Assembly: GCF_018977255.1 (NCBI RefSeq)
Contig: NW_024704742.1
Span: forward strand, 75,766,001-75,830,000
Direction: 5' to 3'
DNA length: 64,000 nucleotides
Source: Callorhinchus milii
Lineage: Eukaryota
Position 1 is the stretch's first letter; the number at the start of each line of letters is the position of its first letter. Positions 17,486 to 59,813 of this stretch are shown in pieces. Under the pieces are notes generated by a model. That model had not been told where the DNA came from, made no database searches, and was given only the letters and a program-made list of their open reading frames with translations. The position numbers and the translations under genes are program-made.

Positions 17486-19960
17486 AGACACACATGGGCA
17501 CATATATATATATACACACACACACACCCGCACAGTTTACACCCATGCGCATATATACACCCGCACACACCCAGATACATACACACAGACACGCATGCAC
17601 GCAGACAGGCACGCACACAGGCAGACAGGTACGCACACAGGCAGACAGGCACACACACAGGCACACAGGCAGGCAGACACGCACTGAGACACGCACGCAC
17701 GCACACAGACACGCACACAGACAGGCACGCACGCAGACAGGCACGCATGCACACAGGCAGACAGGCACGCACGCGCACAGGCAGACAGGCACGCACGCGC
17801 ACAGGCAGACAGGCACGCACGCGCACAGGCAGACAGGCACGCACGCACACAGGCACGCACGCACACAGGCAGACAGGCACGCACGCACACAGGCACGCAC
17901 GCACACAGGCACGCACGCACACAGGCAGACAGGCACGCACGCGCACAGGCACGCACGCACACAGGCACGCACGCACACAGGCAGACAGGCACGCACGCGC
18001 ACAGGCAGACAGGCACGCACGCGCACAGGCAGACAGGCACGCACACAGGCAGACAGGCACGCACACAGATACACACACACATACTCACACACAGATACAC
18101 GCACACAGATAGGTACACGCACGGACAGGTACACGCTCACAGACAGGTACACATACAGATACACACACACAAACAGATATACACACACATACAGACAAAT
18201 ACACAGACGGACAGGTACACACACACAACCAGATACACACACACACACAGATATACACACACACAGATACACACACACAGACACAGATACACACACACAG
18301 ATACACACACACACAGATACACACACACAGATACACACACACACACAGATACACACACACACGCAGATACACACACACAGATACACACACACACAGATAC
18401 ACACACACGCAGATACACACACACAGATACACACACACAGATACACACACACGCAGATACACACAGATACAAATAGACACACAGACACAGATACACACAC
18501 ACACAGACACACACACACATATACACACACAGAGATACAGACACACACACACAGATACACACACACAGATATACACACACACACACAGATACAGACACAC
18601 ACACACACAGACACACACACACAGATACACACACACAGATATACACACACACAGACACACACACACAGAAACACAGACACAGATACACACACACGCAGAT
18701 ACACACACAGATACAAATAGACACACAGACACAGATACACACACACACAGATACACACACACAGATACACACACACACACACACAGACAGATACACACAC
18801 ACAGATATACACACAGACACACACACACAGATACACACACACACAGACACACACACACAGAAACACAGACACAGATACACACACAGATATACACACACAC
18901 AGACACACACACACAGATACACACACACACAGATATAGACACACAGATATACACACACACAGATACAGACACACACAGACACACAGACACAGATACACAC
19001 ACACACAGACACACACACACAGAAACACAGACACAGATACACACACAGATATACACACACACAGATACACACACACACAGACACACACACACAGAAACAC
19101 AGACACAGATACACACACAGATATACACACACACAGACACACACACACAGATACACACACACACAGATATAGACACACAGATATACACACACACAGATAC
19201 AGACACACAGACACAGATACACACACACACAGACACACACACACAGACACACAGACACAGATACACACACAGATATACACACACACAGACACACACACAC
19301 AGATACACACACACACAGATATAGACACACAGATATACACAGACACAGATACACACACACACAGACACACACACACACAGACACACACACACACAGACAC
19401 ACACACACACACACAGACACACACACACACACAGACACACACACACACAGACACACACACACACAGACACAGATACACAGACACACACACACAGACACAC
19501 ACACACAGACACAGATACACAGACACACACACACACACACAGACACACACACACACACAGACACACACACACAGACACACACACACAGACACACACACAC
19601 AGACACACACACACAGACACACACACACACACACAGACACACACACACACACAGACACACACAGACACACAGATACACAGACACACACACACACAGACAC
19701 ACACACACACACAGACACACAGACAACACACACACACACACACAGACACACACACACACACACAGACACAGAGACACACACACAGACACACACACAGACA
19801 CACACACACACACACACACAGACACAGATACACACAGACACACACACACACACACACAGACACAGATACACACAGACACACACACAGACACACACACACA
19901 GATACACACACAGACACACACACACACACACACAGACACACACACACAGACACACAGACA
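17486..19960. repeat. Compound (CA)n-based microsatellite of about 2.5 kb
   Basis: Successive CAGG/CACG, CAGATA and CAGA interrupted CA blocks; source of the long spurious CV/TH ORFs. Confidence 0.97.
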
Positions 19961-20064
19961 GGTGAGTGACGGGGTGACAGGCCTCCGGCCTCCTCCTGAC
20001 ACGGCCCTGGAGAGAGAGGGAGAGAGAGAGGGGGGGACAGGCCGCCGCCGCCCCCGAGCTTTAC

Positions 20065-20199: not shown

Positions 20200-21316
20200 T
20201 CCCCCTCCCGTCAGTGAGAGGGAGAGGGGGAGGGGGAGGGGGGACAGTCAGTGAGAGGGGGAGAGAGAGGGGGAGGGGGGGACAGTCAGTGAGAGGAGGA
20301 GAGGGGGAGTGTGGGACAGTCAGTGAGAGGGGAGGGGGAGGGGGGGACAGTCAGTGAGAGGGGGAGGGGGAGGGAGGGGGGACAGTCAGTGAGAGGGGGA
20401 GAGGGGGAGAGGGAGGGGGAGTGTGACAGTCAGTGAGAGGGGGAGGGGGGGAGTGTGACAGTCAGTGAGAGGGAGAGAGGGAGGGGGGGACAGTCAGTGA
20501 GAGGGGAGGGGAGGGAGGGACAGTCAGTGAGAGGGGGAGGGGGGGACAGTCAGTGAGAGGGGGAGGGGGAGGGGGGGTGGACAGTCAGTGAGAGGGGGAG
20601 GGGGGGGGGAGTGTGACAGTCAGTGAGAGGGAGAGGGAGGGGGGGAGTGTGACAGTCAGTGAGAGGGGAGGGGGGGAGTGTGACAGTCAGTGAGAGGAGG
20701 AGAGGGGGAGTGTGACAGTCAGTGAGAGGAGGAGAGGGGGAGTGTGACAGTCAGTGAGAGGAGGAGAGGGGGAGTGTGACAGTCAGTGAGAGGGGGAGGG
20801 GGGGACAGTCAGTGAGAGGGAGAGGGGGAGAGAGAGGGGGAGTGTGACAGTCAGTGAGAGGGAGAGAGGAGGGGGGAGTGTGACAGTCAGTGAGAGGGGG
20901 AGAGAGAGGGGGAGTGTGACAGTCAGTGAGAGGGGGAGTGTGACAGTCAGTGAGAGGGGGAGGGGGGAGTGTGACAGTCAGTGAGAGGGGAGGGGGGGAG
21001 TGTGACAGTCAGTGAGAGGGGGGGGGGGAGTGTGACAGTCAGTGAGAGGGGGAGGGGGAGGGGGACAGTCAGTGAGAGGGGAGGGGGAGGGGGGAGTGTG
21101 ACAGTCAGTGAGAGGGAGGGGGGGAGTGTGACAGTCAGTGAGAGGGGGAGGGGGAGGGGGGGAGTGTGACAGTCAGTGAGAGGGGGAGTGTGACAGTCAG
21201 TGAGAGGGGGAGTGTGACAGTCAGTGAGAGGGGGAGGGGGGGAGTGTGACAGTCAGTGAGAGGGGGAGGGGGTGAGTGTGTGAGGGTCAGAGGGTGTGAG
21301 TCAGTGAGAGGGGGAG
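20200..21316. repeat. G-rich VNTR with core (GTGT)GACAGTCAGTGAGAGG and variable G/A spacers
   Basis: Several dozen units directly upstream of the DNAJB14 ATG. Confidence 0.95.
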
Positions 21317-22324
21317 GTCATTGACCAGTTTTAGATTTTATATTGTGACACTACACATTGCCAAAGTCTAAATGCAACTCTTCCCATTTCTAAACCCTGA
21401 AGTTAGGTATGTGTTATTTTAATGTTATATAAGCTACTGCTGCTGCTGTGAAATTCTGGGCCCTCAACCATTATTAATCAAATTGTACAATCTCTAGGCA
21501 CTCTTTAAGATGCTGTGGAGGTAAGACGCTTTCATCACCATGGAATATGCAATTTTCCTGATTTATTCAGATTTTCTACTATATCCCACATCACCTGTTA
21601 CTCAGAAAATAGCCCCCCCCCCCCCCCCACACCACCATGTGATCCTTCCTGGATCCTGAAAAGACTAATTAGCCAAAATATTGATGACTTTAATGACTTT
21701 CATTTAATTTAATTTAATGACAATTCCTCCCAATCTCTAGTCCCTTCAAACCAAGTATTAATCCAGTGAATTGTCACTGGACACACGTACATCCTTCCTA
21801 AAATTGCTGTGTGCAAACTGGCTGCCACATTCACCAGCAAATATATTTTACAGTATATCCCGTGAAGCACTTTGAGATGTTCTGTTGATGTGATAAGACC
21901 ATATATCAAATGCACTGATTTTTACATTATTATTATAAGATTATACGCTCCTTAAGATTGGGTGCCCAATCTTATGTAACATAATCATCCAAATTATTCC
22001 TGTGTATTGATAATAAGGAGGTATAATCTAAAATGTTGTCACTGGAAATAGTTAAGGGGTAAATTAGAAGAAACATTTTTGTGCTGAGGGTTATTAATAA
22101 TATTAATCCTTTCATTTGAAACAGCACCTTATCATGTCATTGAGATATCTCAAAGTGCTTCACAGAATATACTGTATATTTTGTGAGTGAAACGCGGCAG
22201 CCAATTACACACAGCAGTGTCCCACAAACAGACGTGGATTGACTGACAACATTTTTTTTCTAAGGTATTATTACGCCGGAAAGCAATCCGCCCATTGACA
22301 AACAACTGCGTTCCTACTTATGCT

Positions 22325-25716: not shown

Positions 25717-28543
25717 CCAGCACAGCCCCGCCCACCCCGAGCTGACACTCACTGTCACACTCACCCATAGAGAAACTGTTGACTGCCTTTAACGATGAGA
25801 TTGAAATGTGAAGCTAATAACGTTATCTGCTTAGTTACAAACACTAAACAGAGGAATACAGTACTTTCTGTCATTCTTACATTCCCACAATAGTAGAACT
25901 GATGAAAAGGGGAGGTTTTTTGTGCAAACTCATTCAACAGTGGGCTTTCAAACTGTGCTAGTTCAAACAAGCTTGTATTATATAGTTGGAGTTAGTACAG
26001 TTAGTGGAGCTGCCTGGGTGTAAATAACGCCACACATACATGCAAACCTGATTAGGTGTGTGATATGTTACCTCAGCCTTTATGATAGCTGCACTCCAGT
26101 TCTTACCAACCTGCACTTGATACTTGTCTGGAATTAGGTAAGCAGGATGCATCCCTCCGGGGAGAGAGGGCACATTCCATACCAACAATCTATCTCTGGG
26201 ATTTCCATGTGTAGGTGGGATGCATGGAATTCTCAGCTTGGTTTGGATACTCTTAAGCATAGGGATGGGTTTCCACCTGTGTCTGACACCCAGCTGCCAA
26301 AATAAAAACGATAGCTTCACTCATTCATGTGCAATAGACAAGTGGTCAAACTCCTTAAAGTGCCCACTCTTACTATCCTAATAACTTTAATCATTAGGAT
26401 AGATGTTTGCATTGCTGCCCTTAATTTTATCATCATGTTCAAAATCCCAACATACCTAGTGGGCAGTTTTCTCTTGGAATTTAACAATGAATCTATGGTT
26501 CACTCTTTGAAATTGTACCAAATGAAGCACAGTGCTCTTGGGAGCAATGAGGCAAGAGTACAGAAAATCGATGGTGGTTTGGACTGCTCCGAGGCAGATA
26601 TGTTCCCTGAAGGCGATATTTACTCTCCCTATAAATTATTTTGCAAACATAGTTCTATGCAATTCAGATGCAGTTAACGTTGATAGATTAGACGACTGCA
26701 TCCATGTATAACACGTTTGGTTAAGGGCTCGGGAAATGCTAGCAGCTGACTGAAAAGCCCTCCATGGCCTGGCTCCTTCCTACCTCTGTGACCTGCTAAC
26801 GTCATATCAACCTGTCCGTTCCCTCTCTTCAGCAGGCTCCGGCCTGCTCCATGTTCTCTGCCTGGCCCGCCCCACCATCGTCAGTCGGGTCTTCAGCTTC
26901 TCTGCCCCCGTCCTCTGGAACGCCATCCCACAATCCCTTCACCTCCTTGCCTCCTTCAAGACATGTCTCAAGGCTCTCTTCTTCGACTGCGCCTTTGGTT
27001 AACCTCCTACCCCGACCCTCCCTGCCCTCCATCCCTCTTGATCCCAACCCCCAGCTCGGGTCCAAATCCCTGACTGTCCAGCTCCTTGGGACGTCCTCCC
27101 GACGTGAAAGGTGCTTTACAAATGTAATTTGTTGATGATGATGTTGAAATGCATGCAGATCTAATTGTGGAGAATGATAATCTGTTTCCAGACAACATGT
27201 TGGATCTTACTGATCATGTTGAAAGTGATGAGATATTCAAAAAGAGGTGTGACATATCCTTCCCCACTGATAACTTCAGGTAACTGATTTTAAAAGCTGG
27301 GACTGACCACTTAAGTGTTAATATCCTGTGTTTCACTGTGGCTTAATTTCCAGCAGCCAGAACCGCATAATGCTGATCAACATGTGAACATTTTGGACAT
27401 AAATGATCATATGAGGAGGAGGAGCATGTTATGGTATAGAAGTGGATGGAGACTCATGCTGAGTCTAAACACTGGCTCATACGAATTGGGCCAAATGGTC
27501 TGTTTCTGGATGTAAGCGGGAACCTCTATGTTCAATGAATGGATACCAACCACTGTACATGTACAGTAAACTCTTGATATCTCCAAGGTGAAAAGGTTCA
27601 ATGACAAGTTATGTGGCGTGGCATAGATCCTCCTGGGCCACAATGGGATGCTATGATTGGTGTGGGCACTCAGCAGAGGTTGCAGGCTCAGATAATAATA
27701 TTAATCCTTGCATTTTATATATCGCCTCATCACATCATCAAGACATCTCAATGCGCTTCACAGAATATACTGTAAAGTGTAGTGAATGTGTGTTTTGTGG
27801 GAGAAATGCATTGCTGAGGCCTTTGGTCTTAGTGGCGGGCCACGTCATGGCCCCTTGCTCTATCCTGCATAGGTTAGGGTGAAGGTGGGGCTCACGGGGT
27901 AGTCCTCCAATAGACCAAAGGCCTCTGCGATGCATCTGAGCATGTGTGCCCCAACCTTTGCCAAGTGCCTGTACCAGTCATGGCATAGGGCGGGGGGTCT
28001 ATGCGAAGCAAGACTCCATCTTATAGAACAAGCTATCCATAGTAAGTACTTATAAGAATATCTAGAACGTGACTAGTTACATGTTAGCGGAGTAAAAAGT
28101 AAAGGGCAATGCCTTATTAACATTTTGCATAGAAAACAGTTGGGATATTGACACTTAAGTGGTAGTGACAAGTTAAGCCAGGATCTTGTTATCAGGAGTT
28201 TACAGTGTATCACGTCGAAACATCACAATATCCTTCACAGGGTTTACTGTAAAGTAGTGACGGCGTCAGTTTGTAAGCCAACAAGGCAACCAATTTGTGC
28301 TCAGCAACGTCTCACAAACAGCCATGAAATAAATGGGGAGATATGGCCAGGACACCGGGAGAAATTCCCTTCTCTTTTCAATAATACCATCGGATCTTTA
28401 ACATCCACTTTAACATCTCACCTCGACATGATTGAAAAAAATGGGCCAAATGTTCTTCTGTGCTGTAAATTTCCCCCCAAATTCTGGAAGACACCATCTG
28501 TGACAATTACTCCACCAACATTGTACTAGAATGTCAGCCTAGA

Positions 28544-28605
28544 CTGGGGTGGCCCAACCTTTTGGCTACTGAGGGCCGGATTTGGGAAACGTCTGCGGGC
28601 CACGT
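28544..28605 (+). mobile_element. hAT/Charlie-like terminal fragment (also at 51893-51954)
   Basis: CTGGGGTGGCCCAACCTTTTGG...GAGGGCCGGATTT...GCGGGCCAC resembles hAT MITE termini; no partner end found. Confidence 0.45.
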
Positions 28606-29799
28606 AAGCAATAAGCACCTCATCATCACCCTCGATGGTTCGATCATCTGCCCTGACAGTGAACCACAAAACCCTGCTCTCACTTCTCTCTCCTTTCCTC
28701 TCTGATTCTCTTACTCCCCCTTTCTCTCATACTCTTTCGCTCTTCTCGCTCTCAAACACTCTCTCTTTCCCGCACTCTCTGAATTGCTCTCCCTCCCTGC
28801 TCCCATTCACTCCCTCTCTCTTTCTCACAACCACTCTCTCCCACTCTTTCTCAATTACTCTCTCTCTCCTTTCTCTCTCTCAATCACTCTCTCCCCTCTT
28901 TCTGTCACTCACACTCTCCCCCCTCTCTCCCCTTCCCCTCATCCTCTCTCTCACACACACACTCTCCCCCTCTCTCTGAATCACTCTCTCATCCTCCCCC
29001 CTCCCCACCCTCTTTCTCTCACACACTCTCACTCTTTCTTTCTCACTCCCTCCCTCTCACTCTCTCTCACACTCATACTAGTCTTTGGGAGGGGAGAGAG
29101 ATACAGACAGTTTCTCATCATCAGCTGCCCGGAATCCAAAGTGTTTCTTGAGATTTTGTTGTTCATCAGTGATTGAGTGAGAGAGAGGGAATCAGAGAAA
29201 AGGGGTTGGTTTCTCAACATCATTTACCAGAATCGAAACTATTACTCCATATGCCCTGGTGTTGATCAGTGGGAGCTAGAGATAGAAAGTGAAAGGAGAG
29301 AGGAGAGGAAGGAAAGAAAAACAGAGAAGAGAGTGTATCAAAGCGAGAAGGACACTAAGTGTGAGAGAGAGAGAGAGAGAGAGTGTGTGTATGTGGATGT
29401 CTGAGAGGAGAGGGAGGAAAGAAAAAGAGGGAATGTGAAAGAGAGGGAGAATGTGAGTGAGAGAGAGAGAAATGAGACAAGGGACAGAGACGGTGTGTGT
29501 GTGTGTGAGAGAGAGGAGAGCCAGAGAAATGGAGTGAGAGAGAAGGAGGTAGAGAGAGAAGTGAGGGCAGTGTTTCGTGGTTGGTTCACTGTCAGGACAG
29601 ACAATCGGAGCCTCCCTCGGCCACGGATCGACAAGGACAGAGCCTGAGCGATGTGTCGTGCCCCTGGGAGACAACAATAAATGACATTTATATAGAGCCT
29701 TTCACGTCAGGAGGACATCCCAAGAGGAGACTGTGACGCTTCCCTGGTAGAGGAGTGTGTGTGTGAGCCAAGGGTGGGGAGCCTGGCCGGCCTGTCAGG

Positions 29800-30309
29800 A
29801 TGGGGTGCTGCGGCAGTAAGAAGGTCGGTGATCATTTGTCTCTGGAGAAGATCCTGGTGTATGAGGCTCCGGAGGTTCCTTCATCCAGAGACATTCTGTT
29901 GTACCGGGATGAGGAGGAACCCGAGGAGGAACTGGACCGGCACTTGGATGAGAACCAGTTCTTTTCCTACTTCTTCTCTGCGATAGACTATACTCCCCCT
30001 TTCCAGGGGGTCCTGAGCCGCTGGCAGAGTGAAGTGCAAAATGCCAAGCACGTAGGAGACGTGGACTGGCACCAGGTCTGGAAGTCCAGCGGCTACATCC
30101 ACACTTTGAAGCAGATGCGGAGCCTGATCGAAGCCAAGCGTTTGACCCAGACCTAGCTGAGGGCACTCGGGGCGTGGTCGGAGCAGGTGGTGAAGCGCAG
30201 GCAGATGGAGTACACGCAGGCGTGGAAGTGGGGCAAAGCCGATGCCGGTCACTTCAAGGTTTTGGAAACTTGGAAAGAGCTGCACAGAGCAGTGCAAGGG
30301 CGGTGGTAG
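29800..30309 (+). pseudogene. Paralog of the MGCCGSKK ORF with a premature stop at codon 119 (TGG>TAG, 30154-30156)
   Basis: Colinear with 53149-53658. I count 8 substitutions: 2 synonymous, 5 missense, 1 nonsense. The frame stays open to the shared TAG at 30307-30309. Confidence 0.65.
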
Positions 30310-30377
30310 GGCAGAGGAGCGATGCGAAACCCCCTCCTCCCTCCCCCAACCCACCCCCAGAGGAGAAGCTGATTGGG

Positions 30378-30825
30378 TGTGTCAGCCTGGCTCAGTTGGT
30401 AGCACTCTTGTCTCTGAGTCAGAAGGTTGCGAGTTCAAGCCCCACATTGGGACTTGGAATCACATAGCCTAAGCTGACACTCCAAAGTAGTGCTGGGGGA
30501 GCGCTGCATTGTCGGAGGCGCTGTGTTCGGATGGTACGTTAAGATGAGGCCCCGTTTGCCTGACATTAAAGATCCCTCGTCGCTGTTCAAAATGAGAAGG
30601 GAATTTCTCTCTCTCCCGGTGCTGTGGCCAACAATTATCCCTCAGATAAAATTGGTCAGTCATTCCATAGCTGTTTGCGGGACACTGCTGTGTGCAAATA
30701 GGCTGCCGGTTTTCGCCCACAAAATACAGTCAATCCACTTTACAGCGTATCCTGTGAAGCACTTTGAGATGTGTCGACCGAATGATAAAGCACTATATCA
30801 AATGCAAGGATTATTATTATTATTA
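30378..30825 (+). mobile_element. tRNA-derived SINE (family B, DeuSINE-like), near full length. Others at about 46985-47485(+), 57190-57540(-) and 62840-63255(-)
   Basis: A box TGGCTCAGTTGG, B box GGTTGCGAGTTCAAGCC, central Deu-like core and (TTA)n tail. Confidence 0.85.
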
Positions 30826-33193
30826 AACACCCCCGACCCACCCCAGGGTGAGACTGATTCCCCCACCTCCAACTCACCCCCAGGAGGAAGGGGAATTTGG
30901 TGATGGCGGCTTCACAGTTTTAGCTGGTTAGAGGCCAGCAGTTACCTTAATGCAGGATTGGCCAATACGTTAGCCACTGACCACATGTGTCGAATCGGGA
31001 ATCCAGATGTGGTGAAATTGCATTTTTGATTAGTCAGGAAAAAAAAGTAATAGAAAATAATAACAATAACAAATTGCATTTATTTAGCACCTTTCATGTT
31101 GGGCGGATGTCCCGAGGCACTAGACAATGAGGAGTTTGCACATAAGCTGTGGATATGGATCAGAATGGGAAGATGACCAAATGCACGGTCGAAAAGGAAG
31201 GTCTTGAGATGGGCCTTGAAGGAGGCAAGGGAGGGGATGAAGCGGAGGGACTCTAGGATGGAGTTCCAGAGGGTGGGGGCAGAAAGGCTGAAGGCCCGAC
31301 CACCAATGGTAGAGCAGGCAAGTGGGTGACGTGGAGCAGGCCAGTGCCCATCAAGCAGAGGGAGTGGACGGGTTTAATAGACCCCATCGTCACGTGTATA
31401 ATCTCAATCTTCGTGATTGCACGACCCATGTGTGTGAACTTTGACCTCTGTGCACTCGTCAGTAAAATGTTGAGATGAAAAGAATCATGCGTAAGCTTTT
31501 TTTATGATCGATATGCGTGTGCTTTACTTCCTCAGTAACTGCTTACGGATTATCTGATGTGTAACACGCGTGAAAAAATGCCGGTTCGCGAAATAAAAGC
31601 AGATGTTTGTTCAATAAATAATACGTGCAAATCTCCATGTGAAGTGCATTTACCTGTATTGTGTGAGTGCTTGTCAGGCGTTTGCTGCTAAAATCAGTGC
31701 TTGTGGCTAAACGGTGTCTATTGGGGAGCACTGCCCTCACTCACACTCTGGGGTCTCCCCAGCCCAAGCCTCAGCTCTTGTCAGCCTGAGCCCAAATACT
31801 CCAGAATTATGGGCGCCTTGTTCTTGTCGTAAGAATGAGGGGCTGTGCCAATGTGCATCTGCTCTGCCGCACCACAGGAAACAACTGGACATTTCTACCT
31901 CTCTCACTGTCGCTGCTATGAAAAGCGAGTCATGGTGTTCCTCCGGAAGAGCAAAGTGCGTTTTGCAATCATCTTACGCCCTGGTAGTTTTCTAAACGTG
32001 CTTTCTGTTCCAGCTGCACAGAGAGACAAGGTGTAACCAGATACTCTGTGCATGCAGAAATAAGGCAAGGAAACGGCTCTGAGGTTGTGATAACCAAATG
32101 ATTGTGTGGCTGTGGATAGGTCAGGAACATAGTCAGCAAATACCTATAAGTACCTTTTGGCTGTCTGGATTCCCTATTTGAGAAATGTCTGAGGGCCCCA
32201 TAAGCAATACTTTAGTGTTTCCCTTCCAGAAACATTTACACAGCATTTTTTTCATGTTGGAAGTTTCATTTTGAAACTTTCCCACACACACTCTCAATTG
32301 TTCTCTCTCACTCCTCTCTCTCACCCTCTCTGTCTGAATCTCTCTCTTTCAATCAGACGTGAGGCTCACTGTGTGGCAGCGGGAACAACTACTTTTCCGG
32401 ACATTGGAGGACATGGTTGTTAAGGAGCCCTGCTTACTGTCCCCTCATCTCCAGAGGGGCTTCCTGATAGATTGCAGCAATGGGCGATTTTCTTTCCACT
32501 CCCCAAGCATTACTGTCATGAAGGAACGGTTCATTGGTGGGGGGAAGAGGGAGGAAACGGGCGGAGGGAGGGAACGGGTGCCCCGAAGTTGGGAATGATT
32601 TGGTGGCCGGATGATGTCATCTCCTGGGTCAAATGTGTGGGGCACCAATTGGACCACTCTGGCCTAGACTATTGAGTTCAAAGTTCCAAGTGTTACCAAT
32701 CATGTTACCAACCAAGCCAGACTGACATTAGAAATACTATAGTCCTTTGCTGTCACATAAACCATAATTTATTCTGCTAAACACATCTGTATTTATGGCT
32801 ATGTGTGCTCCTACTGCAGTGAACTGCTTGTCGGGACATGCAATTTGTACAAAAAACCCCTATCACTGGCAGGTAAGTGACAAATGCTTTTAGTCATTGT
32901 GTGACTTTCTTCACAATTAGTCTTACTTTAATGAGATAAAGATTGAGGATGAAGGTTAAAGGACTCTAGTTTAAATCGTTGGGATATAATCCATTATATT
33001 CCCATATGTCATCCAAGATTCCAAACCCACTAAAACCTATTTCTGACCTTGTCTTCACATCCATTTCTGAAGTTCTGATACAATATAAATTTACATTTAT
33101 ATAGTGCCTTTTACATCAGAATATTCCAAAGCTCTTCTGATGTGAGGCATAAACCCATAATCTATTGAGCCAGAGTGCTTCCAGACTAATGCT

Positions 33194-37719: not shown

Positions 37720-38438
37720 GTGCACTTCTCTACCTCACCCCTTACGCTGCTAAAACCCTGGTCCACGCCTTTGTCACCTCAAGCCTGGACTATGGGAACT
37801 CTCTCCTCACCGGCCTTCCCGGCACCTCCCTCCACAAGCTGCAGGTCATTCAGAACTCTGCAGCTCGTGTACTGTCCCGCACCAGGCTTCGCGACCACAT
37901 CACTCCCACCCTCGCTCGCCTCCACTGGCTCCCCATCCCCCAGTGGATTGATTTCAAGATCCTCATCCTCACCTATAAGGCCATCCACGGCCTTGCTCCC
38001 TCCTACCTCTCCAACCTACTATCCCCCTACCTATCTGCCTGTACCCTCCGTTCCTCCGGCTCCGGTCTGCTCCACGTCCCCCGCCCCAATCGCCCTACCA
38101 TCGGTGGTCGGGCCTTCAGCCTCTCAGCCCCCAGGCTCTGGAACTCCATCCCCAGTGCCTTCGCCGCTTCCTCCCTCTCCTCCTTCAAGGCCGGTCTCAA
38201 AACCTTTCTCTTTGACCGAGCCTTCAGCTCCCCTCTCGACTCTCTTCCCCCTCCTCGCTCCCTCCCTTCCCTCCCCTCACCCTGACCATTTCCCCCCTCC
38301 TCGCTCCCTCCCTTCCCTCCCCTCACCCTGACCATTTCCCCCCTACTCCGCTCCCGACCCAACTGTGCAGCGCCTTGGGACGTCCTCCTGACGTGAAAGG
38401 CGCTTTATAAATGTAATCTTGTTGTTGTTGTTGTTGTT
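37720..38438 (+). mobile_element. L2 3' fragment (young subfamily)
   Basis: LVHAFVTSSLDYGNSLL...LHWLPIPQ...APRLWNSIP with a (TTG)n tail; nearly the reverse complement of 23065-23745. Confidence 0.9.
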
Positions 38439-39998: not shown

Positions 39999-40146
39999 CT
40001 ATGAAAATTTCTTCATGAAGCAAAGTTTTGCATATGAAATCATCAGGAAAATAACCATCATTAATATTAATGCCACGTGATTCTGCCACAAGCCCCAAGC
40101 AGTTGCATCAATTCCTTGACTGTGAAGGTATTGTTCTCCAGTGCAT
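39999..40146 (-). CDS. ABCG2: ABCG2 last coding exon (TM6) with stop
   Basis: CTGEQYLHSQGIDATAWGLWQNHVALILMMVIFLMISYAKLCFMKKFS then TAG. Confidence 0.97.
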
Positions 40147-40439
40147 CTATAAGAGACAGAAGTCATAATACTTGGTCATAAAATATAATTATTTGTGGGT
40201 GCATAGATGCATTTTTACTATTCTATTACCCTCCTAACATTTTGATTTGATTGACTGTATTGTTTGTCTTTGCATACCCAATGATCATTTCTACCTTTTC
40301 ATAGGTAATAGTGGAAAAAGTGTGTGTAAAGATCAAAGGGGAAGGAAAGCCTGTGGTACTGATGTTGCTTTAGACTCCCCTCTTATCCACTAGGCTGGTC
40401 CAGTAATGTGAACCCACCAGAGGGCTTCCATTTGCTTTT

Positions 40440-47665: not shown

Positions 47666-49286
47666 CTGTGGGTAAAATAAGAAAGAGGTATAAAAATTAC
47701 TTTTAGCAAAACTGGCAAAGGAATTACTGTATATCACAACCAAACTTTTCTGCATATAACATGCCCTCCCCCATCCCCCCTATATAATACTTAGTAAAAC
47801 ATACCAAATATATTGCACAATCCCCTGCCCTTTTCTTGGGAGACAAAACACCACAATACTGTATGTAAAGCAAGGAGTTTTTTTGTTTTACTAATATGCG
47901 TCAATGATTGACACTATGCCATCTGCAGGTTGCCTGAACAAACTGTGATCACTTCACTAAAATAAAATGACGTGGTGCAACAACAAAGCCAAGACGTTGT
48001 GGGTGCTGGTACATTACATTACTGGATTTTATGTCTGATACAGAAATTAGTACATGCTAATCTAATCCATATTTTACCAGTGCAGCAATGTTTCATGAGT
48101 AAAAACTATTTACAAGTATCTATTTCTTCAAAGAATATGCTGCTGATAGTGGTAACATATGGAACTCCCTCCCTCTAACACTCTGCCCCACCCCCTCTCG
48201 ATCTGTCATTAAGTTCCTCCTACCTCTTTTAACATCCTTATGGCCTCCTCCCTCTCCCCCTCGTCCCTGTGAAGCTCTCTGAGATGTTACGCCACATGAA
48301 GGCGCTACACAAAGGTAAATTGTTGAGCAAAAACGGATTAGGCTGTCGCGTGATTAATGACAGCGGAAACTATCTTGATTTGAATGATGCAGCTGGTAAA
48401 TACGATATATGAAAGAAGCTAATGTACAAGTACTACTGTAGTTGCCGTAGAATGATTCTGAACTAACTAGCCCATGTCTTTACTTCTGTAATAGGAAGTC
48501 AGTGCTGTGTTGGATCAAAATGTGCTGTAATAATTCTTCGTGCTTATGTTGTGCCTTTTATATAGGGAATACATGCTAAAATGCTTCACAAAGACAGAGT
48601 GGGAGCCTGAGTGGGTGTGAGACAGGGGGAACGTGGCCAAAGGTCTAGTTAAATAAAGAGGTTTTTTTTGACAGATCTTGAAAGAAGAGGGAACAAACAG
48701 GTTTTCTGTTGGGACTTTTTCACTTGCTGTTATGGCATAGGGGGTTTAGTCTGAGTGGGAGCAAAGACTCCAGACATGCAGATTTTGTTCTATCATTTTT
48801 AGTTTAATTGCTACGTACATGCTGCTAGACTGTTCATCTGCTTTTTAATACATGTTAGTACATCCAGCGCCTGGAATCCACCTGGATTGGCTTGCAGAGG
48901 TAAGCAGCAGCTGCTTAAACTCCGCACCTCCAACTTATACTCTGCACCTCCAACTTGCGGAACCATCTCTCAACGTGTGCCCGAGCTGCGGACAGGAAGT
49001 TGATGGCAGTGCTCTCACGCATTTCACACTAGTTTTTAGATTACTGAGTTCTTGTAACCATGCACTGACTGATTCTGTGTTCTAATTAATGCTGAGAAGC
49101 CAGGTAAACACTTCCCAGTCAACAATAACTTATCATCTGTCAGCTGTCATCTCCAGCTGGTGTTGTCTTTACAACACCATTCAAGTAACCAGTATGTTTT
49201 AGCGCCAAGAGGGCGAACATCTGCAATCACTAATGAAAAGCTTGGATTTTGAGCCTTTAGTGAATTGTAAAATAAAAAGCCCTTAC

Positions 49287-49376
49287 ATGAAAATCTTCTT
49301 TTCTATGACGAACAGTTCAATAGCAGATAGACTGCTAAAACACAGGTTGGTGGTCATAAAAAACAACGCCCCGACT
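49287..49376 (-). CDS. ABCG2: ABCG2 exon 11 equivalent (TM2)
   Basis: 90 bp: VGALFFMTTNLCFSSLSAIELFVIEKKIFI; donor GTAAGG. Confidence 0.96.
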
Positions 49377-51141
49377 CTGTGAAAAGAAAATAAGAATGTT
49401 AAAATATTCCACTTTTAAATACTTCATTCCCAATTTAGCATATTTCAATAACTTCCATAAAAGATGGAAAAGAATGAAGGACAGACACACTTCAAGCAAT
49501 GTAAGCACTGACATTTTTATACTGTAAGCTGTATAAAGGGCTCAAACTCGCACTTATGACCAACTAGTTGACTATACTGTGGGGGTGTAAGCGAGGTCTC
49601 CTTGGAGCTGAACTGACAATGGAATGTCAGAAACGAACCAGCCGGTGGTAGTCTCAGTAGTCCGGTTCCTGAGCCGGATGGGTCCGCAGCATTCCAGGGC
49701 ACTGCTGAATTACAGCCCAGCCAGCCTGGCAGAACTTGGGAGGGGCAGACCAGTCATTGGGATTTTTCCCATTCAGGTCCTGTTAATCCTACAAGCCAAA
49801 GCCCTAATGCGTAGGGTGATACTAGAAACAGAAATCTACAACTCACTAGGCCATTTGGCCCATAAAGTCCACACTATCATCCCACTTTATCCTCAAAACC
49901 CCTTCAAGCCCCTCTCTTTCAAATGTCCAGCCACCTCCTTCTTGCAAGCTACAATGGAGTCCGCCTTCACCTCCTATTTGGGAGGGCATTCCACATTTCA
50001 ACCACTCTCTGGGTACAAAATTCCTCCTCCTAAGTTCTCCTTTCACTCCTCTTGTGGCTATCTTATAACTATGGCCCAGTTACTGACTCCCCTCTCAGTG
50101 GAAATAACTTCTCTCTATCTGCCCTAACAAAAACCCTCATGATTTCCAGTGACTTCTACCTCCTCTCGAATTGAAAGGTGCTGCACAAATGTAATTTGTT
50201 GTTGCTGTTATTTTTTGTATATCTCTAGCTGGACAAGCAGTGGGAAAGTTTGCCAAATAATGCTTTCAATGGCAAGCTATGTGCTTTACAGTGGCGGAGT
50301 CCGTCAATGAGCCAGGCAGAGAGGGAGCGGGGGAGATGACCGTAAGCATGATCAAAAAGGAAGGTCTTTGGGCCGGACTTTTACAGGGATGAGAAAGTAT
50401 GAGAAATTGGCTGACCAAAAAATAGCTGAAAAGCTGTCGGTAGCTCAGTACTGCTGACTAAACTTGGCTGGTAGCTTAGTTGGTAGCATTCTTGCCTGAG
50501 TCAGAAGGCTGTGGGTTTAAGGCTTTGAGCTCATAGTCTCGGCTGACACTTCAGTGCAGTATTGGGAAGCCCTGCATTGTCAGAGGTGCTTTCAGATGAG
50601 ACATTTAAACCAAGGTCCTGTTGAGGTGGACGTAAAAAATCCCATGGCACTCCTTGAAAAGAGGTGGGTGTTTTCCCAGAGTTCTGGCCAGCAATGCTCC
50701 ATTTTTCTGCTCATCTCTTCCTTGTGACTATCTTGGACTTGCTGTGTGTACTCTGTCCCCTCCACTCCACCATTGGTGGCTGACTTTTCAACCACTATGC
50801 CCCATAATGTCTGGAACTTCTTCCTTCTACCTCTCCGTTTTGCCCCCACCCATCTGTCTGTCCTTAAATGTTGTCTAAAAACCTACCTTTGACCCGAGAG
50901 TCACAGCCCTTTCCACCTCATCCTTTCCTTGGTGTCTGACCCTATCTTTATAAAGCTCATCAAGCTATTATCTTACAATGAATGAAGGGTGCCATATTAA
51001 TACACACTGTTATACTGCTTTTATAGGATCATTAGAGGTGACATAGCAGGAAGACTTCCAAATTCTCAGTAAAATGGAATTGAACCATTGGTCCCAGAGG
51101 TGAAGGATACTATACTACACCAACTCGTCCATCTATCCATA

Positions 51142-53825
51142 TTTTGTGGGAGAAATGCATTGCTGAGGCCTTTGGTCTTATTGGCAGGCCACGTCATGGC
51201 CTCTTGCTCTATCCTGCATAGGTTAGGATGAAGGTGGGGCTCACGGGGTAGCCCTCCAATAGACCAAAGGCCTCTGCGATGCATCTGAGCATGTGTGCCC
51301 CAACCTTTGCCAAGTGCCTGTACCAGTCATGGCATAGGGCGGGGGGTCTCTGCGAAGCAAGACTCCATCTTATAGAACAAGCTATCCATAGTAAGTACTT
51401 ATAAGAATATCTAGAACGTGACTAGTTACATGTTAGCGGAGTAAAAAGTAAAGGGCAATGCCTTATTAACATTTTGCATAGAAAACAGTTGGGATATTGA
51501 CACTTAAGTGGTAGTGACAAGTTAAGCCAGGATCTTGTTATCAGGAGTTTACAGTGTATCACGTCGAAACATCACAATATCCTTCACAGGGTTTACTGTA
51601 AAGTAGTGACAGCGTCAGTTTGTAAGCCAACAAGGCAACCAATTTGTGCTCAGCAACGTCTCACAAACAGCCATGAAATAAATGGGGAGATATGGCCAGG
51701 ACACCGGGAGAAATTCCCTTCTCTTTTCAATAATACCATCGGATCTTTAACATCCACTTTAACATCTCACCTCGACATGATTGAAAAAAATGGGCCAAAT
51801 GTTCTTCTGTGCTGTAAATTTCCCCCCAAATTCTGGAAGACACCATCTGTGACAATTGCTCCACCAACATTGTACTAGAATGTCAGCCTAGACTGGGGTG
51901 GCCCAACCTTTTGGCTACTGAGGGCCGGATTTGGGAAACGTCTGCGGGCCACGTAAGCAATAAGCACCTCATCATCACCCTCGATGGTTCGATCATCTGC
52001 CCTGACAGTGAACCACAAAACCCTGCTCTCACTTCTCTCTCCTTTCCTCTCTGATTCTCTTACTCCCCCTTTCTCTCATACTCTTTCGCTCTCCTCGCTC
52101 TCAAACACTCTCTCTTTCCCGCACTCTCTGAATTGCTCTCCCTCCCTGCTCCCATTCACTCCCTCTCTCTTTCTCTCAACCACTCTCTCCCACTCTTTCT
52201 CAATTACTCTCTCTCTCCTTTCTCTCTCTCAATCACTCTCTCCCCTCTTTCTGTCACTCACACTCTCCCCCCTCTCTCCCCTTCCCCTCATCCTCTCTCT
52301 CACACACACACTCTCCCCCTCTCTCTGAATCACTCTCTCATCCTCCCCCCTCCCCACCCTCTTTCTCTCACACACTCTCACTCTTTCTTTCTCACTCCCT
52401 CCCTCTCACTCTCTCTCACACTCATACTAGTCTTTGGGAGGGGAGAGAGATACAGACAGTTTCTCATCATCAGCTGCCCGGAATCCAAAGTGTTTCTTGA
52501 GATTTTGTTGTTCATCAGTGATTGAGTGAGAGAGAGGGAATCAGAGAAAAGGGGTTGGTTTCTCAACATCATTTACCAGAATCGAAACTATTACTCCATA
52601 TGCCCTGGTGTTGATCAGTGGGAGCTAGAGATAGAAAGTGAAAGGAGAGAGGAGAGGAAGGAAAGAAAAACAGAGAAGAGAGTGTATCAAAGCGAGAGGG
52701 ACACTAAGTGTGAGAGAGAGAGAGAGAGAGAGAGTGTGTGTGTGGATGTCTGAGAGGAGAGGGAGGAAAGAAAAAGAGGGAATGTGAAAGAGAGGGAGAA
52801 TGTGAGTGAGAGAGAGAGAAATGAGACAAGGGACAGAGACGGTGTGTGTGTGTGTGAGAGAGAGGAGAGCCAGAGAAATGGAGTGAGAGAGAAGGAGGTA
52901 GAGAGAGAAGTGAGGGCAGTGTTTCGTGGTTGGTTCACTGTCAGGACAGACAATCGGAGCCTCCCTCGGCCACGGATCGACAAGGACAGAGCCTGAGCGA
53001 TGTGTCGTGCCCCTGGGAGACAACAATAAATGACATTTATATAGAGCCTTTCACGTCAGGAGGACATCCCAAGAGGAGACTGTGACGCTTCCCTGGTAGA
53101 GGAGTGTGTGTGTGAGCCAAGGGTGGGGAGCCTGGCCGGCCTGTCAGGATGGGGTGCTGCGGCAGTAAGAAGGTCGGTGATCATTTGTCTCTGGAGAAGA
53201 TCCTGGTGTATGAGGCTCCGGAGGTTCCTTCATCCAGAGACATTCTGTTGTACCGGGATGAGGAAGAACCCGAGGAGGAACTGGACTGGCACTTGGATGA
53301 GAACCAATTCTTTTCCTACTTCTTCTCTGCGATAGACTATACTCCCCCTTTCCACGGGGTCCTGAGCCGCTGGCAGAGTGAAGTGCAAAATGCCAAGCAC
53401 GTAGGAGACGTGGACTGGCACCAGGTCTGGAAGTCCAGCGGCTACATCCACACTTTGAAGCAGATGCGGAGCCTGATCGAAGCCAAGCGTTTGACCCAGA
53501 CCTGGCTGAGGGCACTCGGGGAGTGGTCGGAGCAGGTGGTGAAGCGCAGGCAGATGGAGTACAAGCAGGCGTGGAAGTGGGGCAAAGCCGATGCCGGTCA
53601 CTTCAAGGTTTTGGAAACTTGGAAAGAGCTGCACAGAGCAGTGCAAGGGGGGTGGTAGGGCAGAGGAGCGATGCGAAACCCCCTCCTCCCTCCCCCAACC
53701 CACCCCCAGAGGAGAAGCTGATTGGGTGTGTCAGCCTGGCTCAGTTGGTAGCACTATTGTCTCTGTGTCAGAAGGTTGCGAGTTCAAGCCCCGCATTGGG
53801 ACTTGGAATCACATAGCCTAAGCTG
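51142..53825 (+). repeat. Local duplication, copy B (inserted in the ABCG2 intron between the exon 10 and 11 equivalents)
   Basis: 2684 bp, about two dozen substitutions by eye versus copy A. Flanked by 37-bp direct repeats at 51107-51143 and 53830-53866. Confidence 0.96.
53149..53658 (+). CDS. Unassigned intronless 169-aa ORF with an N-terminal MGCCGSKK lipidation motif, nested antisense in an ABCG2 intron
   Basis: Strong Kozak context (cAggATGG), coding-like GC-rich third positions, non-repetitive protein, and an N-myristoylation consensus (G2, S6, K7) with adjacent C3/C4. No family recognised; expression unknown. Confidence 0.6.
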   Translation: MGCCGSKKVGDHLSLEKILVYEAPEVPSSRDILLYRDEEEPEEELDWHLDENQFFSYFFSAIDYTPPFHGVLSRWQSEVQNAKHVGDVDWHQVWKSSGYIHTLKQMRSLIEAKRLTQTWLRALGEWSEQVVKRRQMEYKQAWKWGKADAGHFKVLETWKELHRAVQGGW

Positions 53826-54007
53826 TGATATACTATACTACACCAACCAGTCCATCTATCCATATTCTTCTTAGAAACGTCAGGGTGAATTTCAATCTAA
53901 GCATATCCTACCAAGTCTAATGATGTTTCCAATTGGGACAAAATTGACACTCCTATTTTTCTCTACCAAGTGATGAAATGAGCCCCATCCCGTGCAACTA
54001 CACTAAC

Positions 54008-54090
54008 CTGTTCTGAATTCCATTCAAATCATTTTTCACTCCAAAAGATAAGGCTCCCACAACCAGACCCATGGAAAGCGAAACCAATAT
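54008..54090 (-). CDS. ABCG2: ABCG2 exon 10 equivalent (TM1)
   Basis: 83 bp: ILVSLSMGLVVGALSFGVKNDLNGIQNR. Confidence 0.95.
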
Positions 54091-55926
54091 CTAATGGAGA
54101 GAGAAAATGCAATTAGTACAATAAAATCTTTCCAAAACAGTATATTTATTGGGAAGAGGAACAAATTAGTGTGAAAATTTTATAACAGGGTGAAGTATAT
54201 TAAAAAGGGATCACAGAGATTCTGCAATAAAGAAACAGTTTGCCTCAAAGCAGTTTGCCAAATATTTTACCTAAGTTTGCTGAAGGCAATAATGCAAGCT
54301 GTCACAATATATCACTAACCAGAGTTAGAAGCTTATTTATTCAAGCAAATGGTATTGGAAGGAAAATACTGTGCAGCTTCTCCCTACAAAATAACCAAGA
54401 CAGTGAAGTTAAAAACCGAGCTCAGGGGAGAAATTACACCTGGCTATAGATTTACTCCAGAACTTGGAAAAATGTTGAATTCAGTATTAAGTTTGAGATG
54501 GATTTTCTGCAATTCTTAAAATAAACTTAAAAAAACTTGAAAATTAAGACTGCATTTAAGAATTTGCCAAATTATGGATGTTCCAAATAGTACTACATAA
54601 AAAGAGTAAATCTAAAGGAGGGTGGACTCTCTCCTCCCTCCGTTCAAAATCTGTCTCAAGATGTAACTCTTTGACCTTTGACATCTTTCTCCTCTCGACT
54701 CTCTTCAGCAACTGTCCTCCTGGATCAGGTGCCCAGTAGTGTTAAGCGTTTTGGGACATCCTACCAACTCAATGCCATTGTAAATGTAAATTGTATTGTA
54801 TTTTCTCCTCTCTTGTTAAGAAAGGGATGATGTAAATGGTACCTCATGTCAGAAAATAGCTTCAAGATATAGTCTATCTCCTCCAGGTAATTTCACATAC
54901 TTTGTGCGGACCTATGAAAACTTGGCTCTGAAGAAATCTCAGATGGAATCAAAGTTCTTGCAGGATGACATGACACAATGGTGTAAGCAATCCCAGAATT
55001 CTGGATTGTCTTAACTTGACCAAAGACTTTTGCGAAGACTCATGGACTTTATTTCCTAAAGGCTAACTGTATACATAAATGGATCAAGGCCAAGGACAAA
55101 CGGAAGAACAAGGATCAAAGGATTTCTTCAACCTGGAAGATAAAATTCTTTTGTCGCATTGCAGCTGATGTCTGGAACGACACATTGAACAGACTGGGGT
55201 ACGTGACCAACAAGGTATAAAGAACCAGAGATTTAGGGGTTAATCAGAAGAGCTAACTGCAAACAATCTTGAGGAAAGAGGGATATACTGCAATCAACAT
55301 TGATCACTATACCAAGTTAACAAGCCAATTCATCAATTGAAGCTGTTGTATTGGTCCGATCAACTCATTGAGGTGAACTGTACTAACCAGTCATAAGCAT
55401 TAATTTGATTATATGAAACATATCACCTTGATATGCATTTATTTACTCATCTTTTATTAACATTTACTAATTGAAGCAAATTGAGAGTTGTGCCAATTTG
55501 TACTTCACTGCAGGCTCATAGATTTTAAGTAACCCTACAATGGTAAGATTCACTTTATATCCTGCAGTGTTTTTTCTAGCATGAGGGTCAACATCCTTTT
55601 TTAAATTGAGTCATTAATTTGGGTGCCCATTGCCCCGAGACCTCGGTGCCCCGTAACTTGGAGATTTAGATCCCTGGTCTTTGCGATTTAGGTAGATATG
55701 AATAGATGTGCTACAGCTACTACACTTAATAGTTATTGCTGTTCAAGCACTTTGAAACGTTTCAGCGTTATAGGTGCTGTATCAAATAGAAGGTTTTTAT
55801 TATTAAGTGAGGATCAAATCTGCCATTATTCATAACAACCACATAATAAAATCATGACATTGCTCTTATCATTAAATTAGTTACTATAAATGTTTACAAA
55901 CTAAAGACTACAGAGGTGCATCCTAC

Positions 55927-59491: not shown

Positions 59492-59813
59492 ATAATAATA
59501 TAATAATCCTTGCATTTGATATAGCGCTTTTCACGTCTTCTAGACGTCCCAAAGCGCTTCACAGAATATACTGTAAAGTGAATTGACTGTATATTTGTGG
59601 GCAAACGCGGCAGCCAATTGCGCACAGCAGCGTCCCACAAACAATCATGGATTGAAAATGATCAATTTATTATTGTTTTTTGTTTTTTGGAGGGATTATT
59701 ATTAGGCGTGTGGAGTAAGGAAACTTGTCCAAGGTTTTGCCCTGTCTGGAATTGAACCCAGGTGTCTCACTTGCAAAGCGAGTGCTCTAACCACTGAGCT
59801 ACAGGACTCCACA
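59492..59813 (-). mobile_element. tRNA-derived SINE (family A) with a Deu-like core and (TTA)n tail
   Basis: Head GGAGTCCTGTAGCTCAGTGGTTAGAGCA...GGTTCAATTCC (A and B boxes), core GTTTGTGGGAC.CTGCTGTGCGCAATTGGCTGCCGCGTTT and an L2-like tail. Many partial copies occur across the window. Confidence 0.85.

What the first reader, a model, noticed from the sequence alone, without database searches (positions are those of the whole stretch)
51107..53866. 2.7-kb DNA-level copy-paste into an ABCG2 intron with a 37-bp target-site duplication
Seen: copy B is flanked by ATACTATACTACACCAAC(TC/CA)GTCCATCTATCCATATT at 51107-51143 and 53830-53866 (35/37 identical). The left junction has about 2 bp of overlap and the right has a 4-bp TGAT linker. 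There is no poly(A) or tandem tail, TIR pair or LTR. Copy B ends in mid-SINE, whereas that SINE is complete in copy A, so copy A looks like the source. Inference: a templated insertion during break repair from a nearby donor (SDSA/MMBIR-like), or an unrecognised mobilisation mechanism. It moved the ORF together with 2 kb of its upstream DNA.
Basis: partly seen in the sequence, partly recalled or inferred. Interest (0 to 1): 0.75.

Follow-up and report, generated by a model that had tools for sequence, protein, structure and literature searches.

The report
Gene copied into nearby ABCG2 intron
In a cartilaginous fish, a 2.7-kb stretch carrying a small gene of unknown function was copied into an intron of the neighbouring ABCG2 gene, most likely by a one-off DNA-repair accident of a known kind, here with an unusually long duplication of the landing site.

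Summary
Window 51142-53825 is a gap-free, 99.1% identical copy of 27793-30476, framed by a 35/37-bp target duplication, 2-bp microhomology on the left and a 4-bp filler on the right, inside an ABCG2 intron. Both ends cut SINEs that continue at the donor, which fixes the direction A to B. Contigs of other runs reach into both junctions (right 3 of 3, left 2 of 3 shown; 28-30 letters, under the tool's 31-letter rule) and give no sign of a high-copy family. The cargo is a real single-ORF gene whose named relatives are all cartilaginous fishes. The stop codon in donor A appears in 0 of 4 runs. Best reading: a repair-mediated duplication at a staggered break. Pace et al. 2009 list the same signature (microhomology, target duplication, filler) in 2 of 39 proximal cases, with shorter duplications (4-21 nt) and inserts. 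No empty site or outgroup was seen, so age and exact pathway stay open. The scan noted similar events on other DNA (a yeast case with 16 bp), not at this locus.

The parts
51107..51143 (+). left copy of the 37-bp target duplication
   Evidence: same letters in contigs of X1 and X3 (records 3, 11)
51142..51143 (+). 2-bp microhomology (TT) shared by target and donor
51142..53825 (+). copy B (acceptor), 2684 bp, 99.1% identical to A
51142..51158 (-). stub of the SINE cut by the left breakpoint
   Evidence: SINE match runs 27692-27809 in A, across 27793
51155..51284 (.). 130-bp fold-back element just inside the left end
   Evidence: the A copy folds at z = -6.0
53149..53658 (+). intact 169-aa ORF (P0001) of an uncharacterised family with named relatives only in cartilaginous fishes; antisense to ABCG2
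53728..53825 (+). 5' 98 nt of a SINE, cut by the right breakpoint
53826..53829 (+). 4-bp filler TGAT; equals the last 2 nt of the insert plus the first 2 nt of the target repeat
53830..53866 (+). right copy of the 37-bp target duplication
   Evidence: same letters in contigs of X1, X3, X4 (records 8, 16, 24)
27793..30476 (+). copy A (donor), 3' of the ABCG2 gene, 20,630 bp from the target site
27692..27809 (-). SINE tail spanning the donor's left breakpoint
30379..30826 (+). whole SINE spanning the donor's right breakpoint
29800..30309 (+). donor copy of the ORF; TAG at codon 119 (30154-30156) in this assembly
   Evidence: TGG in the ORF contig of 4 of 4 runs
54008..54090 (-). ABCG2 exon upstream of the host intron (donor site 141 bp from the right repeat)
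49287..49376 (-). ABCG2 exon downstream of the host intron

Best explanation
A single germ-line repair event. Two nicks 37 bp apart on opposite strands broke the ABCG2 intron, leaving 3' overhangs (inferred). The left end paired by 2 bp with DNA 23 kb away on the same chromosome, a sister or the homologue, and was extended for 2.7 kb (SDSA-like capture; inferred). The new strand was released and end-joined to the right overhang with a 4-nt slip, and fill-in of both overhangs doubled the 37 bp (inferred). Shown: the product, its direction, its junctions in other runs, low copy number, and that the cargo is a whole gene with 2 kb of upstream and 167 bp of downstream DNA. The copy is probably a passenger; the transcribed copy in the one RNA-type run laid looks like the donor.
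For: Direction: both ends cut SINEs that continue in A. Junction signature of microhomology + duplication + filler without poly(A) is a listed class of proximal repair-mediated duplications, 2 of 39 (PMC2671141 Table 1). Long duplication: paired nicks with 3' overhangs as short as 43 nt give duplications spanning almost the whole overhang (PMC8355091 passages). Donor in cis, 20.6 kb away; a retrocopy has no reason to land there (inference). Colinear and gap-free, 2 kb upstream DNA included. Real: contigs 53796/7-54563/5 in X1, X3, X4 and 50593-51171 in X1, X3; X1's left contig differs from the window at 2 flank sites, so it is another haplotype. Not high-copy: bins over the ORF read 10-18 against 9-12 in the right flank, while repeat bins reach thousands. 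Filler fits a slip on both sides, expected for about 2% of 4-mers (noticed after the fact).
Against: No empty site or outgroup was seen, so the 37-mer is read as a duplication from its two copies alone. Junction contigs reach only 28-30 letters into the insert, under the tool's 31-letter bridging rule; X4's left junction is not among the records shown. Insert size (2684 vs at most 619 bp), distance (20.6 kb vs under 5 kb) and duplication length (37 vs 4-21 nt) all lie outside the proximal class of Pace et al.; among their 29 interchromosomal cases 17 were retrocopies. The geometry of the duplication and the left microhomology also fits target-primed reverse transcription of a plus-strand RNA. 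The tool warns that depth is no copy number; a third copy is not excluded, and 12 variant sites in the insert are in neither A nor B.
Confidence: 0.6

Rival explanations
1. Replication template switching (FoSTeS/MMBIR) with two switches: a stalled fork left at 51143, restarted 23.3 kb back at the donor, copied 2.7 kb, and returned 37 bp behind its exit point. The product is formally two linked duplications separated by normal DNA.
For: Same product. [quoted passage not shown] Five of 24 differences lie in the first 111 bp (P = 0.005 for either end, 0.05 anywhere, post hoc), and the target repeat has a two-base difference, as error-prone restart might give. A strong hairpin begins 13 bp inside the donor's left end.
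Against: Return to within 37 bp of the exit is explained directly by a tethered staggered break, only loosely by a free second switch. No further templated fragments at either junction.
Confidence: 0.2
2. Retro-copy: a LINE or Penelope-like enzyme reverse-transcribed an unspliced, non-polyadenylated plus-strand RNA fragment at a staggered cut (target-primed reverse transcription).
For: Target duplication, 5' microhomology and extra bases at the 3' junction fit this geometry (established knowledge, recalled). LINE remnants with RT, endonuclease and esterase domains are in the window. Part of the upstream DNA (51776-52419) is covered by a contig in the RNA-type run. Earlier notes report Penelope-type inserts with 14-15-bp duplications in this genome (unchecked).
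Against: No poly(A), no poly(A) signal near the 3' end (first ones in A lie 89 and 346 bp beyond the breakpoint), no LINE/SINE tail, no Rfam ribozyme hit; it fails the class 1 TSIP features. Landing 21 kb from the parent would be a large coincidence.
Confidence: 0.08
3. Two steps: a 23.3-kb tandem duplication (27793-51143, with the 3' half of ABCG2), then a 20.6-kb deletion in the second unit that spared only its last 37 bp.
For: Gives the same sequence; a partial ABCG2 duplicate could favour later loss.
Against: The deletion must end within 37 bp of the first junction, about 0.2% of the positions open to it (37 of 20,667; arithmetic).
Confidence: 0.05
4. An unrecognised mobile unit that carries this gene family and makes long target duplications.
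For: The family has several distant paralogs per species (three in Chiloscyllium). Extra variants in the insert could come from another copy.
Against: Ends fall inside host SINEs; no terminal repeats, no enzyme; copy A has no flanking duplication (longest shared word 6 nt); depth shows no high-copy family; P0001 has no Pfam hit.
Confidence: 0.04
5. Assembly artefact (haplotype duplicate or misjoin).
Against: Both junction sequences, including the TC and CA versions of the repeat, occur in other runs; A-type and B-type letters both occur; no gap between A and B.
Confidence: 0.03

Closest known systems
Repair-mediated duplications (Pace, Sen, Batzer, Feschotte 2009, PMC2671141; parts 1-5 of 8 read)
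   Same: Single donor in cis, donor intact, no poly(A), microhomology + target duplication + filler (2 of 39 proximal cases; 6 of 39 have a duplication), can copy exons into introns; found in several vertebrates.
   Different: Here 2684 bp (proximal maximum 619; their distant class reaches 3,424), donor 20.6 kb away (their cut-off 5 kb), duplication 37 nt (their range 4-21), a whole gene moved; no cartilaginous fish in their survey.
Tandem duplications at breaks with 3' overhangs (Schimmel et al. 2021, PMC8355091; passages read)
   Same: Staggered nicks tens of bases apart give near full-length duplication of the overhang.
   Different: Those passages describe duplications without a kilobase captured insert; the link to this case is my inference.
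FoSTeS/MMBIR insertions with a duplicated inserting site (Gu et al. 2016, PMC5120786; passages read)
   Same: Copy gain of an inserted segment, short microhomology or small insertions, duplication at the inserting site in one family.
   Different: Those are large clinical rearrangements, often with many junctions.
Templated sequence insertion polymorphisms (Onozawa and Aplan 2016, PMC5110952; parts 1-2 of 4 read)
   Same: Copy-paste of unique DNA; class 1 has a target duplication, class 2 has microhomology and filler.
   Different: This case mixes the two: duplication without poly(A), signal or TTTT/A site; donor is near, not distant.

Membership tests
Repair-mediated duplication (Pace 2009) | Parent copy identifiable and intact | tested here: met
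   SINEs cut in B continue in A at both ends
Repair-mediated duplication (Pace 2009) | Insert present at only one other place in the genome | tested here: inconclusive
   One other copy in the window; no high-copy signal; no genome to search; third copy not excluded
Repair-mediated duplication (Pace 2009) | Microhomology, filler or deletion at junctions, no poly(A/T) | tested here: met
   2-bp overlap, 4-bp filler, no tail
Repair-mediated duplication (Pace 2009) | Donor within 5 kb (their operational proximal class) | tested here: not met
   20,630 bp; it falls in their 'distant, same chromosome' group. It works like the class but is outside their confident set.
Repair-mediated duplication (Pace 2009) | Empty site in an outgroup or allele | tested here: inconclusive
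   No empty-site joint among 15 shown, 151 not shown; no hit in metagenome contigs; no sister-species genome on hand
Class 1 TSIP / LINE-mediated retrocopy | Target duplication of 5 bp or more | tested here: met
   37 bp
Class 1 TSIP / LINE-mediated retrocopy | Poly(A) tail with a signal 10-30 nt upstream; TTTT/A site | tested here: not met
   None at either end; features
Class 2 TSIP | No target duplication | tested here: not met
   37-bp duplication present
DNA transposon or LTR element | Terminal inverted or long direct repeats at the insert ends; encoded enzyme | tested here: not met
   Ends unlike each other; inverted repeats are internal; no Pfam family for the ORF
Penelope-like element | Pseudo-LTR ends, hammerhead motif, RT/GIY-YIG coding (features recalled) | tested here: inconclusive
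   No such coding or repeats seen; Rfam gave no ribozyme hit, but minimal hammerheads can escape Rfam and no dedicated motif search was run
FoSTeS/MMBIR product | Iterative switches with several templated fragments | tested here: inconclusive
   Two junctions only; no distinct source for the filler. Two switches remain compatible.
Host gene is ABCG2 | Exons best match ABCG2 among solved structures, in order | tested here: met
   4 of 4 exon translations tested hit ABCG2 best

The most novel reading that the evidence does not exclude
A gene relocation caught in progress: long-duplication capture of nearby DNA is a recurrent route in slow-evolving cartilaginous-fish genomes and drives the turnover of this lineage-restricted, probably membrane-anchored gene family; copy B works as a nested antisense gene in ABCG2 and lets a null allele of the donor drift.
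Probability: 0.08. Interest if true: 0.6.

Novelty: new member of a known kind. Interest (0 to 1): 0.3.

Why it matters
It is a clean, oriented example of a whole gene duplicated by DNA repair rather than by a transposon or retrocopy, at the long end of published insert and target-duplication sizes for this class. It shows that a long target duplication alone does not mark a mobile element. The cargo gives a handle on an unannotated gene family of cartilaginous fishes. As a single event it changes no model; it would matter more if a genome-wide survey found many like it, or if copy B were expressed against ABCG2.

Tried and rejected
Whole-genome search: no genome is held, so copy number rests on contig depth. 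'Donor died, copy took over': attractive because A has a stop at codon 119 and conserved columns continue past it, but the ORF contig has TGG in 4 of 4 runs and the RNA-type contig carries A-type letters at 6 of 8 diagnostic sites; if the stop were fixed in A, 0 of 3 DNA contigs would occur with chance about 1/8, so a fixed stop is disfavoured, not excluded. Empty allele: none among the joints shown and flank contigs run unbroken through both repeats, but contigs show presence, not absence. No RNA holder is on record as RNA; X5 is a guess, and its lack of cover over B's flanks and the ABCG2 exons is not used as evidence. Metagenome scan for the target site: 0 hits. Source of the filler: best matches of 9-10 nt lie 6-41 kb away, at chance level; an alternative reading, a longer original duplication starting at the GTGA seven bases upstream, cannot be excluded. 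Function of the protein: no Pfam family, no Atlas hit, no PDB sequence hit; the model (pLDDT 81.5, six helices from residue 49) had no Foldseek match at E <= 0.001 in PDB or viral sets and best Z 7.0 among generic helical bundles, which neither names nor excludes a fold. Word-index search with P0001 alone found nothing. No further paralog in the window. Other repeats in the window checked for long flanking duplications: none over 9 nt in 6 of 6 rough intervals. Literature: 9 searches listed no paper on this locus or gene family, but none was aimed at them by name; supplements of Pace 2009 were not read and may hold larger cases.
Full report
Observation. The window holds one long non-tandem repeat: A = 27793-30476 and B = 51142-53825, 2684 bp, 24 substitutions, no gaps, same strand. 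B is framed by 37-mers at 51107-51143 and 53830-53866 that match at 35 positions; the match stops sharply on both sides and nothing else in the window reaches 24 of 37. Chance at a given offset is about 4e-19. The left repeat and the donor overlap by TT; four bases, TGAT, lie between the insert and the right repeat. There is no poly(A/T), tandem tail or terminal repeat.

Setting. Exons on the minus strand match human ABCG2 best in 4 of 4 tests. The two exons flanking B give consecutive residues (399-426 and 425-456), with canonical splice sites at 54007 and 49377. The intron is 4631 bp, 1908 bp without the 2723 added bases; the right repeat ends 141 bp from the splice donor. On the ABCG2 sense strand the insert has no AATAAA or ATTAAA. 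The last ABCG2-type coding exon is near 40002-40175, so A lies 3' of the gene, 20,630 bp from the target.

Direction. The right end of B cuts a tRNA-like SINE after 98 of 448 nt, and the SINE is whole in A. The left end also cuts one: a minus-strand SINE tail at 27692-27809 spans A's left breakpoint, and B keeps only its last 15-17 nt. A has no flanking duplication. So A, or an allele of it, is the parent. The two SINEs are inverted to each other (76% over 114 nt), but the breakpoints are not at paired positions, so this is not recombination between them.

Is it real, and how many copies? I laid 4 of the 24 runs listed on 49200-54600; all are assembled contigs. The right junction is in one contig in X1, X3 and X4 (53796/7 to 54563/5). 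The left junction is in one contig in X1 and X3 (50593-51171); for X4 no such record is among those shown. These contigs reach 28-30 letters into the insert, short of the tool's 31-letter rule for a bridge; I read their common end points as the place where the assembly graph merges with A (inference). X1's left contig differs from the window at two flank sites, so at least one other haplotype carries the junction. Both versions of the repeat (TC and CA) are reproduced. Depth over the ORF is 10-18 against 9-12 in the right flank, while repeat bins reach thousands; the tool warns that depth is no copy number, so I take from it only that there is no high-copy family. No empty-site joint is among the 15 shown (151 not shown). 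Twelve variant sites in the insert occur in neither A nor B, against three substitutions in the flanks; deep allelic variation at one copy or a third copy could explain this, and I cannot separate them.

Cargo. B carries an intact 169-aa ORF with 2007 bp upstream and 167 bp downstream. A full HMMER scan gave 10 relatives at 31-42% identity and a profile search two more. Of these 12, 10 carry a species label and all 10 are cartilaginous fishes; 2 are unlabelled. Most start MGC or MG, which suggests lipid anchoring (motif recalled, not tested). No family, solved relative or clear fold match was found. In this assembly A has TAG at codon 119, upstream of conserved columns, so the stop is derived. 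But the ORF contig has TGG in 4 of 4 runs, and in the RNA-type run X5 it has A-type letters at 6 of 8 diagnostic sites; another X5 contig follows the insert to 53825 and continues for 42 letters that do not fit B's flank (letters not shown). This suggests that the donor is transcribed and usually intact and that the stop is a private allele or an error. It argues against the more exciting reading that B replaced a dead parent. X5 being RNA is the tool's guess.

Mechanism. Shown: one segment copied from 23 kb away, 37 bp of target doubled, 2 bp shared on the left, 4 bp added on the right. Inferred: a break with 37-nt 3' overhangs; the left end primed on the donor, copied 2.7 kb, and was joined back to the right overhang; fill-in doubled the overhang. 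The filler equals the last two bases of the insert plus the first two of the repeat, as slippage during end joining would give (about 2% of 4-mers, post hoc). Fork template switching gives the same product; the cluster of 5 differences in the first 111 bp and the hairpin 13 bp inside the left end (z = -6.0) lean slightly that way. Retro-copying fits the geometry but lacks every tail feature and does not explain a donor so close. If all 24 differences arose after the event, the epaulette-shark rate of 7e-10 per generation (PMC10587355, abstract) gives about 6 million generations; this is an upper bound from another species, since part of the difference is allelic.

Comparison with what is known. 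Pace et al. 2009 (PMC2671141, parts 1-5 of 8 read) describe repair-mediated duplication from nearby chromosomal DNA across vertebrates; their Table 1 has microhomology + target duplication + filler in 2 of 39 proximal cases, with duplications of 4-21 nt, inserts up to 619 bp and donors within 5 kb; their distant group reaches 3,424 bp. This case works like that class but fails its 5-kb cut-off and exceeds its sizes. Schimmel et al. 2021 (PMC8355091, passages) show that 3' overhangs as short as 43 nt are duplicated almost whole, which removes the puzzle of the 37 bp. Gu et al. 2016 (PMC5120786, passages) report an insertion with a duplicated inserting site. It fits neither TSIP class fully (PMC5110952, parts 1-2 of 4). 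PMC3420103 (one passage) gives a mean of 3.1 kb for intrachromosomal duplications in Drosophila. Supplements were not read.

Earlier notes of this scan (unchecked). Nothing near this place or like this protein. A yeast case of a captured 305-bp fragment with a 16-bp duplication was read the same way. Notes on this genome call it elephant shark and list several short templated copies in introns and Penelope-type inserts with 14-15-bp duplications; I did not test these, and my own data place it only among cartilaginous fishes.

Verdict. Real, correctly described, and most likely a one-off repair-mediated duplication: a new member of a known kind, notable for its size, its long target duplication and its cargo. 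Interest 0.3.

Noticed in passing
window:53149-53658 (+) and 29800-30309 (+): Unannotated single-ORF gene of a fast-diverging family with labelled members only in cartilaginous fishes (10 of 12 labelled), MGC-type start, six-helix C-terminal domain with no family or fold match; several paralogs under 50% identity in one species.
   Followed up: partly
window:30154-30156: Premature TAG in donor copy A of this assembly; TGG in 4 of 4 runs laid. Private null allele or assembly error.
   Followed up: partly
window:51341-53681: Twelve variant sites in the insert absent from both A and B, five on one 500-bp contig of X1, against three substitutions in about 2.2 kb of flank: deep alleles or a third copy.
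   Followed up: no
window:27806-27935 (and 51155-51284): 130-bp fold-back element with about 24-bp arms (z = -6.0) abutting a truncated SINE; raised depth suggests a small family.
   Followed up: partly
window:28634-29614 (and 51983-52963): About 1-kb decayed inverted-repeat structure, CT-rich arm and GA-rich arm, directly upstream of the ORF; partly covered by contigs of the RNA-type run.
   Followed up: no
window:33227-36698 (+): Broken LINE with a GDSL-esterase ORF1 domain, endonuclease and RT pieces; a second RT remnant at 10120-11632 (-).
   Followed up: no
window:13766-14853, 17456-19963, 20210-21317: A 34-bp minisatellite of about 32 copies at 97% match and two long degenerate simple-repeat arrays.
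   Followed up: no
window:23074-23743 and 37767-38438: Inverted pair of young LINE 3' ends, 94.5% identical, bracketing copy A.
   Followed up: no
window:9960-10031 (+), 59737-59808 (-): tRNA-like hits; the second heads a repeat that shares the SINE tail.
   Followed up: no
window:50563: One extra base in contigs of all three DNA runs relative to the window: possible assembly error.
   Followed up: no
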